Part shown: in pieces, positions 17,846-27,775 of the stretch | How the letters are laid out: every line of letters begins with the position of its first letter | How positions within the stretch are numbered: the first letter of the stretch is position 1 | Position numbers and translations under genes: made by a program | Notes under the pieces: generated by a model | Seen by the model: only the letters and a program-made list of their open reading frames with translations | Databases searched by the model: none | Told to the model about the DNA's origin: nothing | Assembly: GCA_038087875.1 (NCBI GenBank) | Contig: CM075989.1 | Span: forward strand, 21,826,001 to 21,890,000 | DNA from: Malacoraja senta | Lineage: Eukaryota | Direction of reading: 5' to 3' | DNA length: 64,000 nucleotides

Positions 17846-18235
17846 GTGGATGTGGAGAGGATGTTTCCACTAGTGGGAGAGTCCAGAACCAGAGGGCACA
17901 GCCTCAGAATAAAAGGACGTACCTTTAGAAAGGAGATGGGGAGGAATGGGATATGGATGTCAGGGGATATGGGGAGAAGGCAGGAACGGGGTACTGATTG
18001 GGGATGATCAGCCATGATCATATTGAATGGCGGTGTTGGCTCGAAGGGCCAAATGGCCTACTCCTGCACATATTGTCTATTGTCTATTGAATTTCTTTAG
18101 TCAGAGGGTGGTGAATCTGTGGAATTCATCGCCACAGAAGGCTGTTGAGGATGTCAATGGGTATTTCCAAGGCAGAGATTGACAGAGACTTAATTAGAAA
18201 GGGTATCAAGGGTTATGGAGAGAAGTTAAGGGAAT
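17846..18235 (+). mobile_element. Nested CR1 3' fragments
   Basis: DVERMFPLVGESRTRGHSLRIKG motif; a second CR1 tail (about 17948-18089) is inserted inside. Confidence 0.8.
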
Positions 18236-24290: not shown

Positions 24291-25571
24291 CCGCTTCTAA
24301 GAGTCTCACTCACTGCCCTCTCCTCATAGCCCCGCAATTATTATTTTTTTCTTTCAACTACTCATCCAGGCCCCCTTTGGAACTCTGTTATAGAGTTGTC
24401 CTCCACTGACCCCTTGGCAGTACATTCCAGAGTCAAACCATTCACTGCATCACGAAAAAAAAGATTTTCTTCATGTCACTTATGGCTATTTCACTCTCTG
24501 ACTCTTGGCCCCTTTTGCCAATGTGAACACTTTTCCGCTGCCGAATTGACGCAACATTTTTTTGGAGATACAGCGTGGAACAGGCCCTTCAGCCCACCGT
24601 GTCCATGACGACCAACGATCACCCAATCACTAGTTCTATTCTACACACGAGGGAAAATTCACAGAAGCCTATTCACCTACAAACCTGCACGTGTTTGGAG
24701 TGTGGGATGAAAGTGGAGCTGCAGGAGAAAACCCACGCAGGTCACGGGGAGAAAGTACAAACTCCATACAGACAGCACCCGTAGTCAGGATCGAACCTGG
24801 GTCACTGGCGCTGTAAGGCAACCACTGTGCCACCATGCCGCCCTCTGTCAGATTTCCCCTCAACACCTCTATCTTGAGGAGAATAACCCTAATTTCTCCC
24901 ATCAATAACAAAGACAAGAAATACATCATTCCATAACCGAACAAGATAAAGTTAAACCAAAGATAGACACAAAAAGCTGGAGTAACTCAGCGGGTCAGAC
25001 AGCATCTCTGGAGAAAAGGACTAGGTGACGGTTCAGGTCGAGAACCTTCTTCCTAGAAATAAAGTTAAACGCCCTTAATTACAAAACAGGCTAAAAAAAC
25101 TAAGATGCTGAACCGTTACCTGACATTACCCAGTGACAAAGTTCTTACCAATCCATTTTATATCTGCGTCCTTACTTAAACTGAGAGAAGCTGAAAATGA
25201 GTGTGTAACGAACTACTGATGTTCAGTTTATAGCCAAACCATCCATTGGTGTAAGGTGTGGCTAACCTGCTTTGTTTTATAATCTAGTTGATGCCACAGG
25301 AAGCAAGAATGAAATCTGTTTATAAGACGTGACTGTGTATTAGTGCTTTGGGAGATCGAGTTACTGCTTTTTTTTAAAGTTATTTTGCATTTCCTTGTCC
25401 ATATTAGAGGCTTCCTCTTTAATCCTGAACATGGCTTGCCGCTGTAGAAAGTCAAAGGGGAAAGGTCAAGGTTCTATTCCAGGACACCAGCAGTGGGGCA
25501 GATCAAATGATGCGACAAAACAGGATGTGGCTTTATTGGCTTCACCTTGCACTGAATGTTATTCCCTTGTC

Positions 25572-25838
25572 ATAAGGTCATAAGGTCATGTGATAGGAGT
25601 AGAATTAGGCCATTCGGCCCATTGAGTCTACTCCGCCATTCAATCATGGCTGATCTATCTCTCCCTCCTAAACCCATTCTCCTGCCTTCTCCCCATAACC
25701 TCTGACACCCGTACTAATCAAGAATCTAACAAATTCTGCCTTAAAAATGTGCATTAACTTGGCCTCCACAGCTGTCTGTGGCAATGGATTCCAGAAATTC
25801 CTCCTCATCTCCTTTCTAAAGGTACATCCTTTTATTCT
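25572..25838 (-). mobile_element. CR1 3' end (host of the ribozyme-headed element)
   Basis: RIKGCTFRKEMRRNFWNPLPQTAVEAK...GYGEKAGEW plus UTR. Confidence 0.85.
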
Positions 25839-25892
25839 GGGGTGGGGGATGGCAACCTTCACGTGGTCCACCCTGTTTCGACTAATGCAATC
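25839..25892 (+). ncRNA. Predicted minimal HDV-like self-cleaving ribozyme
   Basis: P1 GGGGUGG/CCACCCU (7 bp, G.U at position 1); P2 GAUGGCA/UGCAAUC (6 of 7); P3 ACC/GGU; L3 UUCACGU; single P1.1 C-G; P4 reduced to U(UUCG)A; J4/2 CUAA with candidate catalytic C25882. Confidence 0.8.
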
Positions 25893-25975
25893 AACCTGAC
25901 GTGCACAAACAAGATCAAATGGAACAAGTAGATCTACAACTTTAGGCTGTGCACGCCATACGCAAGAAGAGGAAG
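25839..25975 (+). mobile_element. 137-bp short non-autonomous retroelement with (GAA)n-like tail and 13-15 bp TSD
   Basis: ATCCTTTTATTCTGG at 25826-25840 and 25976-25990; ends CAAGAAGAGGAAG; no tRNA A/B boxes; 3' stem TGACGTGCACA/TGTGCACGCCA. Confidence 0.85.
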
Positions 25976-27775
25976 ATCCTTTTATTCTGGTTATAGATAT
26001 AATCATGATAAAATATATGACTTTGGATAAATAAAAATTCCAAACTCCACTACTGGCAAAAACTTGAAAGTATTTAGGTAAATATTAGAAAGGGTGGCAT
26101 GGTGGCGCAGCGGTAGAGTTGCTGCCTTACAGCGCCAGAGACCTGGGTTTGATCCTGACTATGGGTGCAGTCTGTACGGAGTTTGTACGTTCTCCCTGTG
26201 ACCATGTGGGTTTTCACAAGGATCACCGGTTTCCTCCCACACTCCCCAGGGAAACTGAAGGGAGCGAAAATCAACTGCCACGGATACAAATAATGTCATA
26301 CACAAGAAAGGGCAGATGCTGGTTGACTAAAAGTGAACACACAGTGCTGGAGTAACACAAAGACGCAGCAGAATTTTGGAAACGCCATCCCGTCACCTGT
26401 TCCTTCTCTCCAGAGATGCTGCCTGTCCCGCTGAGTTAAAGAGTGCCCACGGTAGACTCACGAGTCACTACGGTAAACTCACGGGCTACTATGTTCTTAC
26501 ACCTGTTTCCTCCCACACTTCAAAGATGTACACGTTTGTAGTTTAATTGATTTGGTACAATTGTAAATGTGCGCAGGATAGTGTATGTGTGTGGGGATCG
26601 CTGGTTGGCACAGAATCGATGGGCCGAAGGGCCTGTTCCAGCGCGGTATCTCTAAACTAAACTAAGTTAAACAAAAACTAAACTAAACCAGACAATTGAG
26701 TTATTGGACTGTTTGCAGTAAAAATGTGTCTTTTAAGAAGTTTGTCATTCTTTTAAAGGACACTTTAAATGGAACTTTTAAGAAGTTTATCATCATTTGG
26801 ACAGGCACGTATACAGGAAAGGTTTTGACGGCTATAGATCAAAGGCAGGCAAGTGGGACTAGTGTGGATGGGGCATCTTGTTGGGCCAAAGGGCCTGTTT
26901 CCATGCTGTATGAGTCTATGACTGTGAAAACGACTAAGCAGGAACAGTACTGAAGAAACAATGGCAACTGCAGATGCTGGTTTAAACCAAAGATAGACAC
27001 AAAATGCTGGAGTAACTCAGTGGGACAGGCAGCATCTCTGGAGAGAAGGAATGGGTGACGTTTCTGGTCGAGACCCTTACTCAGAAACATGGTTATGTTC
27101 CAAGTTGGCTCACGCAGTAACAATTGATTTTTAACAAGTATCAATCCTCTTTGGATTTACATTTTGTTTTGAACCTGCGGTGCATCATTCTTCTGATGCA
27201 ATAATAACTTTGCCTTGGTTAAAATGATGATTCCGATGTCTTTAATTTAAACCTACGGATAACCGAGAGAGGTTTTCAGTTTATTTGCCTTTTAAATTAA
27301 GACCAAGTGCACGGAAATATTATGAACAGCAAATGAAATGATTTCTGGAGTTTAGAGATGGTAGTTAGGACGATATAAATAGTTGGTGTAATAAGCTGGA
27401 ACGAGTCCATTCTAAAACCATCTTCCACACACATGTGAAGATAAAAGGCTGCGAGTGGAGGAAACTCCAAATAGAGAGTGATTCCCCAGTGAGAGGTTGG
27501 TGAGCACCAGACTATGATTTGCCAAGAGATTGAAGGACAGGATGTTAACAGCAGCAGGTGTTGGACATTACTTCACCCTTGGGTGCCTGGATTTTGACAT
27601 TTGAACTTAAGCTTCTAATTTAAGACTTCACTTCAGCTCATCCATGACTGAATCAAAACCTGATCGAACTCAGACTCTGTGCTGGACCAAGGGCTTCACT
27701 TTCCATTTCCTGCCAACTTCAGTACTGAAGGATTTCTCGCTCGGATTAGAACAAGCATGGTTTGCAGAAGATTGA

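What the first reader, a model, noticed from the sequence alone, without database searches (positions are those of the whole stretch)
25839..25975. Ribozyme-headed mini-retroelement: a minimal HDV-like ribozyme forms the exact 5' end of a 137-bp TSD-flanked insertion
Seen: the insert is bounded by ATCCTTTTATTCT(GG) direct repeats and ends in a (GAA)n-like tail. Its first 54 nt satisfy the nested double pseudoknot of HDV-like ribozymes. P1 25839-45/25868-74 is 7 of 7 with the diagnostic G.U first pair. P2 25848-54/25886-92 is 6 of 7. P3 is ACC/GGU, with a 7-nt L3 UUCACGU (U...G pair positions kept) and a C25860-G25875 P1.1 pair. P4 is shrunk to U(UUCG)A, and J4/2 is CUAA. Established: HDV-like ribozymes cleave 5' of G1 and generate the 5' ends of R2, RTE and some L1-type retrotransposon RNAs. 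Inference: the predicted cut coincides with the element boundary. This would be a promoter-less SINE that releases its own 5' end from read-through transcripts and borrows an RTE-like RT (long TSD, short-repeat tail). I do not know whether this family has been described in cartilaginous fish.
Basis: partly seen in the sequence, partly recalled or inferred. Interest (0 to 1): 0.92.

Follow-up and report, generated by a model that had tools for sequence, protein, structure and literature searches.

The report
Ribozyme-headed mini retroelement and its LINE
The 137-base insert is one copy of a large family of short retroelements that begin exactly at the cut site of a stripped-down hepatitis-delta-type self-cutting RNA fold, inherited from a parent LINE whose relatives carry ribozymes of the type so far known from the mammalian CPEB3 gene.

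Summary
All pairings, the 13-15 bp target-site duplication and the AAG-type tail are at the stated coordinates. The insert is one copy of a large family: 393 exact matches to a 35-nt core, 1550 first-look candidates.

In 31 of 37 copies with a detectable duplication, the duplication abuts G1. The family consensus has a perfect P2; the window's mismatch is private.

I found the autonomous partner, a roughly 3.1-kb single-ORF, RTE-like LINE. Its 5' UTR starts with the same 54-nt fold and its last 47 nt equal the element's tail. The element is therefore an internally deleted derivative (a "SIDE"), not a Pol III SINE.

Related LINEs in metagenome contigs carry HDV-like ribozymes at the same place, with many compensatory changes and real P4 hairpins. 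One scores 55.6 bits on Rfam's CPEB3 ribozyme model. The window's own genome holds 39 hits above that model's cut-off, and eight lie directly upstream of RTE-like ORFs.

The window family is a P4-less minimal derivative that Rfam does not detect. Cleavage itself is untested, and no RNA data could be used.

Verdict: a real feature, a new variant of a known kind, with an unexpected link to the CPEB3 ribozyme family.

The parts
25826..25840 (+). Upstream copy of the target-site duplication ATCCTTTTATTCT(GG). The last two G are shared with the element's first bases.
   Evidence: The family-wide duplication analysis is: median 11 nt, range 8-13.
25839..25892 (+). 54-nt minimal (P4-less) HDV-like/CPEB3-type ribozyme fold. 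Predicted cleavage is 5' of G25839.
   Evidence: The pairings are read. The descriptor matched. The pseudoknot-free minimum-energy fold of the 54 nt is exactly P1+P3, -12.8 kcal/mol. Homologous ribozymes stand at the heads of related LINEs.
25839..25845 (+). P1 5' strand GGGGTGG. It pairs with 25868-25874.
   Evidence: 95.2% of cells are paired over 54 aligned rows.
25848..25854 (+). P2 5' strand GATGGCA. It pairs with 25886-25892. G25851 is a private mismatch; the family has T here.
25855..25867 (+). P3 (ACC/GGT) closing L3 TTCACGT. C25860 pairs with G25875 (P1.1).
   Evidence: The L3 is identical to the Rfam CPEB3 consensus L3 shown.
25876..25881 (+). 6-nt linker TTTCGA in the place of the P4 hairpin.
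   Evidence: relatives have 19-54 nt with hairpins here. A second P4-less family in the same genome has TTTTCA.
25882..25885 (+). J4/2 CTAA. C25882 is the predicted catalytic cytosine.
   Evidence: The C is invariant in 54 of 54 aligned rows. The second base varies T/G/A between subfamilies.
25893..25912 (+). Continuation of the partner LINE's 5' UTR (element positions 55-74).
   Evidence: BLAST of LINE copy L093 against the window gives LINE 10-74 = window 25848-25912, 95%. See also alignment A1.
25913..25928 (+). Variable middle piece (positions 75-90), only partly like the LINE 5' UTR.
   Evidence: This is the most variable part between subfamilies and in other organisms' contigs.
25929..25975 (+). 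Tail identical to the partner LINE's 3' end. It holds the last codons, stop TAG at 25943-25945, a 3' UTR of about 20 nt and AAG-type repeats.
   Evidence: Positions 91-137 match the 3' ends of LINE copies L079-L091. The ORF end is seen.
25976..25990 (+). Downstream copy of the target-site duplication.

Best explanation
The insert is a dead-on-arrival copy of a non-autonomous non-LTR retroelement family. Each member consists of three pieces: the first ~74 nt of an RTE-like LINE's 5' UTR, a short variable piece, and the LINE's last 47 nt.

The first 54 nt fold into a minimal, P4-less HDV-like ribozyme of the CPEB3 type.

The family has no promoter of its own. A master copy is transcribed as part of a longer host transcript. 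The ribozyme cuts 5' of G1 and so makes the element's exact 5' end. The LINE's reverse transcriptase recognises the shared 3' tail and copies the RNA into a new site by target-primed reverse transcription, which leaves 8-13 bp duplications.

What is shown:
- the family exists and has discrete 5' ends at G1;
- it shares both ends with the LINE;
- the head is homologous to ribozymes at the heads of related LINEs.

What is inferred:
- self-cleavage of the P4-less form;
- read-through transcription;
- use of the partner's enzyme.
For: (1) Fold. All helices and core bases are present. The descriptor gave 37 hits in 707,578 positions, all of them family copies. The minimum-energy fold of the 54 nt is P1+P3.

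(2) Family. All 40 of 40 scored genome matches are 93-100% identical and start at position 1-3. The 35-nt core has 393 exact copies.

(3) 5' ends. Of 56 non-redundant copies, 37 have a duplication of at least 8 nt, and 31 of those 37 abut G1. In the control, 6 of 550 mismatched flank pairs gave such a duplication. In contigs of four other organism codes, 31, 41, 11 and 12 contigs have unrelated sequence right before G1.

(4) Partner LINE. The 3' 47 nt are shared. Seven LINE 5' UTRs were found. Six carry the head and linker, and one of them has the full GGGGTGG start. L093 runs head, then ATG 106 nt from G1, then APE and RT.

(5) Constraint. Subfamily-level changes in the head fall only at J1/2 position 8, position 32 (U-A to U.G) and the N of CNAA. 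The linker varies much more.

(6) Relatives.
- HDV-like folds stand 118-154 nt upstream of the ORF in 8 of 21 related LINE loci, against 0 on the reverse strand.
- These carry 1-3, 2-5 and 0-2 both-side changes in P1, P2 and P3, with one broken pair in all.
- Independent Rfam hits score 55.6 bits (CPEB3 model) and 33.1 and 30.5 bits (HDV model).
- In L135 and L180 the copies' similarity starts at G1.

(7) Active P4-less HDV-like ribozymes are in print: passages of PMC10879173. A second P4-less family exists in this genome.
Against: - No cleavage assay exists and no usable RNA data were found.
- Rfam finds nothing in the window copy or in family copies at E up to 10.
- Within the family, covariation does not exceed shuffles: score 0.053 against 0.049, with 40 of 500 shuffles as high.
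- The 60-nt pseudoknot-free fold is no more stable than shuffles (z = 0.28).
- Four of seven LINE 5' ends start at position 8-10 and so lack the P1 5' strand.
- 13 of 21 related LINE loci gave no descriptor hit. One of these has a weak Rfam hit.
- The upstream stretches of two other RTE-like families of this genome gave no hit.
- The relatives were found with a descriptor that demands pairing, so their pairing is partly by construction.
- The window copy itself has a P2 mismatch.
Confidence: 0.8

Rival explanations
1. The head is a fossil. It descends from a true LINE ribozyme, but loss of P4 killed catalysis. The discrete 5' end at G1 then comes from transcription initiation or another processing step, and the family spread all the same.
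For: P4 is missing while 6 of 6 distinct related ribozyme types keep it. Rfam models do not score the family. Four of seven LINE 5' ends lack positions 1-8.
Against: The family reached at least 393 copies with an intact core, and those copies start at G1. Head positions that differ between subfamilies are all structure-neutral. A second, diverged P4-less family persists in the same genome. P4-less HDV-like ribozymes cleave in vitro according to passages of PMC10879173.
Confidence: 0.13
2. It is an ordinary Pol III SINE, or a retro-copy of a small cellular RNA, whose first bases resemble a ribozyme by chance.
For: Its size, duplications and simple-repeat tail are also typical of SINEs.
Against: No tRNA was found by ARAGORN. 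No tRNA, 5S, 7SL or snRNA match appeared at E up to 10. The head and linker are the 5' UTR of a LINE. The descriptor has 0 hits outside the family in about 0.7 million positions.
Confidence: 0.03
3. It is merely a 5'-truncated or rearranged fragment of the LINE, not a family of its own.
For: Both ends are LINE sequence. Tail-only copies exist: L043, L048, L055, L056, L060, L066 and L067.
Against: Hundreds of copies share the same internal junction and length. All 40 of 40 scored matches cover the whole 137 nt or nearly so. Several subfamilies have their own junction variants.
Confidence: 0.02

Closest known systems
SIDEs: short internally deleted non-LTR elements headed by an HDV-like ribozyme. 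[quoted passage not shown]
   Same: They combine a 5' HDV-like ribozyme taken from a LINE with a 3' end recognised by a LINE enzyme. They have no ORF, are not Pol III transcribed, and are released from co-transcripts. Source: passages of PMC3414825 and PMC4035085.
   Different: Here the partner is an RTE-like LINE and the copies are dispersed genome-wide in hundreds to thousands. The element is only 137 nt long and its ribozyme lacks P4. The organism is not an insect or a trypanosome.
HDV-like ribozymes at the 5' ends of RTE, baggins, R2, R4 and L1Tc retrotransposons.
   Same: The position at the exact 5' end and the predicted cleavage at the element boundary. These elements have no promoter of their own. 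Source: passages of PMC6765202 and PMC3774820.
   Different: Those described have a P4 domain. I could not read the primary paper (Ruminski et al. 2011; not held), so I cannot say whether a P4-less retrotransposon ribozyme is described there.
Mammalian CPEB3 ribozyme (Rfam RF00622).
   Same: - Helix lengths up to position 38 are identical: P1 7 bp, P3 at 17-19, L3 at 20-26, G37, U38.
- L3 UUCACGU equals the Rfam consensus L3.
- P1.1 is one C-G pair plus a U-U pair, as stated for CPEB3 in PMC4836649.
- J4/2 is CNAA.
- LINE-head relatives pass the family's gathering score at 55.6-64.2 bits.
   Different: The window family has other P1, P2 and P3 sequences and no P4. It gets no Rfam hit. It sits at retroelement 5' ends, not in a CPEB3 intron.
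Minimal (P4-less) HDV-like ribozymes of metagenomes and phages (drz-Mtgn-1, theta ribozymes).
   Same: P4 is replaced by a 6-7 nt linker and J4/2 is CTAA. L3 is 7 nt, differing from TTCACGT by one base, and J1/2 is 2 nt. I parsed this by eye from the 51-nt sequence printed in the Methods of PMC10879173.
   Different: Those are phage elements next to tRNA genes, with 6-bp P1 and P2. This one heads a eukaryotic retroelement and descends from P4-bearing LINE ribozymes.

Membership tests
HDV-like (delta-like) self-cleaving ribozymes | Nested double pseudoknot: P1, P2, P3 and P1.1 in the order P1-P2-P3-L3-P3'-P1'-P1.1'-(P4)-J4/2-P2' | tested here: met
   96% of 700 cells are paired over 54 rows, against 19-43% when the partners are slid.
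HDV-like (delta-like) self-cleaving ribozymes | G1 in a G.U pair at the cleavage site, and a cytosine as the first base of J4/2 | tested here: met
   G25839.T25874 and C25882. The C is invariant in 54 of 54 rows.
HDV-like (delta-like) self-cleaving ribozymes | Covariation supporting the helices | tested here: met
   Not within the family. Across related LINE heads there are 13, 21 and 4 both-side changes in P1, P2 and P3, summed over six comparisons, with one broken pair. Caveat: the relatives were found with a pairing-based descriptor. Three of them also have Rfam hits.
HDV-like (delta-like) self-cleaving ribozymes | Mg2+-dependent self-cleavage 5' of G1 | not testable with these tools
   This needs a bench assay.
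HDV-like (delta-like) self-cleaving ribozymes | Match to a curated covariance model | tested here: not met
   There is no HDV-type or CPEB3 hit at E up to 10 for the window copy, L005, or L004 and L095.
CPEB3 ribozyme (RF00622) | Score at or above the gathering threshold of 35 bits | tested here: not met
   The window family gives no hit. Relatives do: L160 55.6 bits, L182 64.2, L183 43.7, L184 40.4. In the genome, 39 of 59 scored candidates pass.
CPEB3 ribozyme (RF00622) | P4 hairpin | tested here: not met
   A 6-nt linker stands in its place.
Ribozyme-headed SIDE (non-autonomous non-LTR element) | Head homologous to the 5' end of an autonomous LINE, and tail homologous to its 3' end | tested here: met
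Ribozyme-headed SIDE (non-autonomous non-LTR element) | Target-site duplications and discrete ends in many copies | tested here: met
   37 of 56 copies have a duplication of at least 8 nt, and 31 of those 37 abut G1. Control: 6 of 550.
RTE-clade LINE (the partner) | About 3.2 kb, a single ORF of about 1000 aa with AP endonuclease and RT, a very short 3' UTR and a short-repeat tail | tested here: met
   L093 spans about 3.1 kb. P0001 is 1019 aa with PF03372/PF14529 and PF00078 on a 3344-nt contig. The 120 listed homologues are 866-1093 aa, mostly on 3.0-4.6 kb contigs. The stop codon lies about 20 nt before the AAG repeats.
RTE-clade LINE (the partner) | Phylogenetic placement among reference RTE reverse transcriptases | not tested
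   No named reference LINE sequences were on hand. The hallmarks of the clade are recalled, not taken from a call.
Pol III SINE | Head derived from tRNA, 5S or 7SL with an internal promoter | tested here: not met

The most novel reading that the evidence does not exclude
The 'mammalian' CPEB3 ribozyme is not a mammalian invention. It belongs to a ribozyme lineage carried at the 5' ends of RTE-like LINEs.

In this genome, intact-ORF LINE copies are headed by ribozymes that score up to 64 bits on the CPEB3 model. The window's element is a naturally P4-stripped descendant of that lineage that still multiplied to hundreds or thousands of copies.

The intronic CPEB3 ribozyme would then be an exapted LINE head. 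Minimal HDV-like ribozymes would have a eukaryotic retroelement source besides phages.
Probability: 0.4. Interest if true: 0.85.

Novelty: new variant of a known kind. Interest (0 to 1): 0.72.

Why it matters
The finding gives a natural 54-nt HDV-like ribozyme of a eukaryote without P4. Its activity can be tested beside P4-bearing relatives from the same LINE lineage.

It shows a compact way for a promoter-less retroelement to define its own 5' end in a large animal genome.

It places sequences that pass Rfam's CPEB3 ribozyme threshold at the heads of LINEs. The origin of the CPEB3 ribozyme thereby becomes a question that comparative genomics and simple cleavage assays can address.

My seven paper searches and the passages read found no statement of such a link. 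They also found no ribozyme-headed element in cartilaginous fish. The key primary papers (Webb et al. 2009; Ruminski et al. 2011; Riccitelli et al. 2014) were not readable here, so this absence is weak.

Tried and rejected
- RNA evidence. The look-up of sequencing runs listed 24 runs and no RNA holder. All were Logan contigs, so read laying could not show RNA starts; its table of begins and ends was empty. Nothing about expression or cleavage follows.
- Rfam on the window and on family copies gave no relevant hit.
- Covariation within the family was not above shuffles.
- A pattern search for heads followed by non-SINE sequence gave 8 hits. Seven were indel-bearing copies and one was a chimera (L031). 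The partner LINE escaped this search because it shares the first linker bases.
- L091 and L092 were fetched to walk up the LINE, but both copies were 5'-truncated.
- The upstream stretches of two other RTE-like families of this genome (L100, L101) gave no descriptor hit. I do not know whether those stretches reach the element's 5' end.
- The first metagenome scan, with the LINE N-terminus, found no relative.
- A MAFFT alignment of the seven ribozyme types (A7) misaligned P2', so pairs were counted from the descriptor parse instead.
- Three of the 56 copies (L035, L051, L059) have large internal deletions in the head. They were left out of alignment A3. L095 was entered there with wrong coordinates and contributes only its 3' half.
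- The organism was not identified.

Full report
**The observation**

- ATCCTTTTATTCT(GG) stands at 25826-25840 and at 25976-25990. The insert ends AAGAAGAGGAAG.
- P1 is 25839-45 with 25868-74: 7 of 7 pairs, G.T first.
- P2 is 25848-54 with 25886-92: 6 of 7 pairs.
- P3 is ACC with GGT, closing the loop TTCACGT.
- C25860 pairs with G25875.
- CTAA stands at 25882-85.

Because GG is shared between the duplication and the element, the start is ambiguous by 2 nt.

I wrote a descriptor of the fold with these terms:
- P1 of 7 pairs beginning G.T;
- J1/2 of 0-3 nt;
- P2 with at least 6 of 7 pairs;
- P3 of 3 pairs;
- L3 of 7-8 nt with C third;
- a G after P1';
- CNRA before P2'.

It matched 37 times in 707,578 positions (both strands of all DNA held at that point). 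All 37 hits are copies of this family.

**A family with discrete ends**

The window's own genome is an assembly of 1.94 Gb. The 137 nt gave 1550 first-look candidates there. All 40 scored matches were 93-100% identical and began at query position 1, 2 or 3. An exact 35-nt core occurs 393 times, against 0 for the reversed control.

Copies lie in unrelated flanks. Fifty-six non-redundant full-length copies were collected from the loci held.
- 37 of the 56 have a duplication of at least 8 nt (median 11, range 8-13).
- In 31 of those 37 the duplication ends directly before G1. In 3 it ends one base before and in 3 two bases before.
- With flanks of different copies paired at random, 6 of 550 pairs gave such a duplication.
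- No copy carries conserved sequence upstream of G1.

The family consensus has T where the window has G25851, so P2 is 7 of 7 in the family.

**No Pol III head**

ARAGORN finds no tRNA at 25500-26500. Rfam at E up to 10 finds no tRNA, 5S, 7SL, snRNA or HDV-type match in the window stretch or in L005.

**The partner LINE**

A pattern that demanded the tail but excluded the element's own upstream bases gave 64 hits. Among them were copies whose upstream sequence is coding.

These belong to a LINE whose ORF ends ...AWMSTLDLQL, with the stop TAG inside the shared tail. Element positions 91-137 match the 3' ends of LINE copies L079-L091. The RT domain is PF00078.

A full-length homologue from the protein collection, P0001, has these properties:
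- 1019 aa;
- AP endonuclease plus RT;
- it lies on a 3344-nt contig;
- 59% identity to the query.

Its first 301 residues found 132 matches in the genome. One of them, C1:194036992-194037732, has an open frame. It lies 65 nt downstream of one of the exact ribozyme cores.

That locus is L093. It reads: head from position 9, then linker, then ATG 106 nt from where G1 would be, then APE and RT. The LINE part spans about 3.1 kb. Its ORF is broken in several places and its tail is interrupted by another insertion.

A LINE-specific 5' UTR 35-mer has 7 genome matches at up to 3 mismatches. Their 5' ends are as follows:
- one starts GGGGTGGGAG (L095);
- one is nearly complete with a small indel (L099);
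- four start at position 8-10 (L093, L096, L097, L098);
- one is truncated at about position 66 (L094).

So the element is the LINE's first ~74 nt, a variable piece, and the LINE's last 47 nt. That makes it an internally deleted derivative.

One subfamily (L040 and two other places) keeps a longer stretch of the LINE 5' UTR.

The partner's architecture is RTE-like. All 120 listed homologues of P0001 are 866-1093 aa with the same domains, mostly on contigs of 3.0-4.6 kb. I did not place it in a tree.

**Constraint on the head**

Between subfamilies in this genome the head differs at only three places:
- position 8, in J1/2 (G/A);
- position 32 (A/G), which turns U5-A into U5.G;
- position 45, the N of CNAA (T/G).

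Recurrent G-to-A changes at two CpG sites look like decay.

I laid contigs of four public runs with four different organism codes on L008 at 85% likeness or more. In all, 946, 934, 188 and 129 contigs were laid. Variants reaching 10% were distributed as follows:
- in the head: only positions 32, 42 and 45;
- in the linker and middle: eight positions and one insertion;
- in positions 98-137: none.

Within the family, pairing is kept in 96% of 700 cells, against 19-43% when partners are slid. Covariation is not above shuffles.

The 54 nt alone fold, pseudoknot-free, into exactly P1+P3 at -12.8 kcal/mol. P2 alone is worth -4.8 kcal/mol. With six more bases the minimum-energy fold prefers P2 and is no better than shuffles.

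**Relatives supply the covariation**

A profile of 14 homologous proteins found 576 relatives in metagenome contigs, and 80 loci were kept. Of these, 21 loci had at least 164 nt available upstream of the inferred ORF start.

- A relaxed descriptor hit in 8 of the 21, always on the coding strand and 118-154 nt upstream of the ORF start. The reverse strand of the same 7,986 nt gave 0 hits.
- L160, L161 and L162 are one locus seen three times.
- L135 and L180 are two copies of one family, and their similarity begins exactly at G1.

That leaves five distinct sequences. Counting L135 and L180 separately gives the six compared. Against the window family they show 1-3 both-side changes in P1, 2-5 in P2 and 0-2 in P3, with one broken pair in all. 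The second P1.1 pair runs U-U, U-G and C-G. All have a P4 region of 19-54 nt.

The descriptor demands pairing, so pairing as such is by construction. The placement, the shared L3 and J4/2, the shared AACCCGAG after P2' and the Rfam hits are not. Those hits are:
- L160: 55.6 bits on CPEB3_ribozyme (gathering score 35, E 9e-13);
- L135 and L180: 33.1 and 30.5 bits on an HDV model;
- L110: a weak 30.9 bits.

**The CPEB3 connection in the window's own genome**

I searched the genome with RF00622. Of 102,231 rough candidates 59 were scored. Of these, 51 reached E of 0.001 or better and 39 passed the gathering score, with a top score of 64.2 bits. The 14 control genomes gave none.

Eight of these hits lie 30-60 nt upstream, on the same strand, of RTE-like ORF N-termini found independently. 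Three of those ORFs have open frames of 926-1014 aa. The eight are at:
- C21:8958106
- C1:217550485
- C1:153860770
- C7:45624474
- C5:26604676
- C8:937615
- C7:34905670
- C2563:15431

L182 is a canonical example with a P4 hairpin, followed by an ATG. L183 and L184 (43.7 and 40.4 bits) represent a second P4-less type, with G, then TTTTCA, then CCAA.

The window family shares with the CPEB3 consensus the whole L3 (UUCACGU) and the GU after P1'. It also has the same numbering of U20, U21, C22, A23, G25, U26, G37 and U38 as named for CPEB3 in PMC4836649 (passages). Its P1, P2 and P3 letters differ, and Rfam does not score it.

**What is known**

The following comes from passages of the papers named.
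- HDV-like ribozymes at the 5' ends of R2, R4, L1Tc, baggins and RTE elements cut at or near the element boundary (PMC6765202; PMC3774820).
- Internally deleted derivatives that keep the ribozyme and a LINE 3' end are described for R2 and R2/R1 in Drosophila, and for NARTc/RIME in trypanosomes (PMC3414825; PMC4035085).
- P4-less 'minimal' HDV-like ribozymes are active in vitro. They were traced to phages, and their eukaryotic origin was left open (PMC10879173).

The kind of element is therefore known. What I did not find in print, in the searches and the passages, is:
- a P4-less ribozyme heading a retroelement;
- such a family in this group of animals;
- CPEB3-model hits at LINE heads.

The primary papers most likely to bear on this were not held (others recalled only).

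**Verdict**

The feature is real. Self-cleavage of the P4-less form is the one inferred step that matters.

Noticed in passing
own genome, one search places, e.g. L182 (C21:8958060-8958200): 39 of 59 scored candidates pass Rfam's gathering score for the 'mammalian' CPEB3 ribozyme. Eight sit just upstream of RTE-like ORFs found, and some of those ORFs have open frames of 926-1014 aa.
   Followed up: partly
L183 (C13:8596070-8596155) and L184 (C2:95332780-95332862): A second P4-less CPEB3-type ribozyme family (43.7 and 40.4 bits) with a 6-nt linker TTTTCA and J4/2 CCAA. About twenty further hits of 61-65 nt may belong to it. What follows the ribozyme was not examined.
   Followed up: partly
L160, L161, L162 at 806-889: A ribozyme scoring 55.6 bits on the CPEB3 model lies about 145 nt upstream of a decayed RTE-like ORF. 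The locus is identical, flanks included, in three metagenome records, so it is one locus of one unknown organism.
   Followed up: partly
L031 / L069 (C1:20849560-20849840): Head positions 2-55 are fused directly to a piece of a different, very young and abundant repeat (2157 candidates, 97-98% identical). Its translation looks to me, by recall only, like an esterase-type LINE ORF1. This is either a chimera by template switch or an insertion into a copy.
   Followed up: partly
L092 1-420 (C2:51418600-51419020): A 5'-truncated partner LINE copy of about 2.2 kb abuts an inverted partial head (positions about 8-75). Given how little of the genome the family covers, the adjacency is unlikely to be chance. 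It may be a twin-priming-like event.
   Followed up: no
L093, L096, L097, L098 (LINE 5' ends): Four of seven LINE 5' ends start at position 8-10, just after the P1 5' strand. The short element mostly starts at G1. Reverse transcription may stall at the folded head on long templates.
   Followed up: no
element positions 62-69 and 110-117 (window about 25900-25907 and 25948-25955): The linker CGTGCAC.. and the tail ..GTGCACG can form an 8-bp stem enclosing a small hairpin over the stop codon. The fold of positions 55-137 is -14.6 kcal/mol, z = -1.6, and 14 of 200 shuffles fold as well. The signal is weak.
   Followed up: partly
window 25539-25838 and 17860-17960: The insert sits at the end of a copy of a common interspersed repeat (many copies in the window and loci). 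Uninterrupted copies read ...ttattctgaggctgtgcc. This locus continues differently after the duplication, so it does not give a clean empty-site comparison.
   Followed up: partly
window 26093-26200: A repeat starting GGGTGGCATGGTGGCGCAGCGGTAGAG... looks tRNA-derived and recurs in several loci (for example the flanks of L009 and L093). ARAGORN calls no tRNA there.
   Followed up: no
P0002: The closest named protein to the LINE's C-terminal part is from a teleost, at 73% identity over 85% of the query. The full-length homologues at 45-50% identity include several insects. This spread is wide for one LINE lineage.
   Followed up: no
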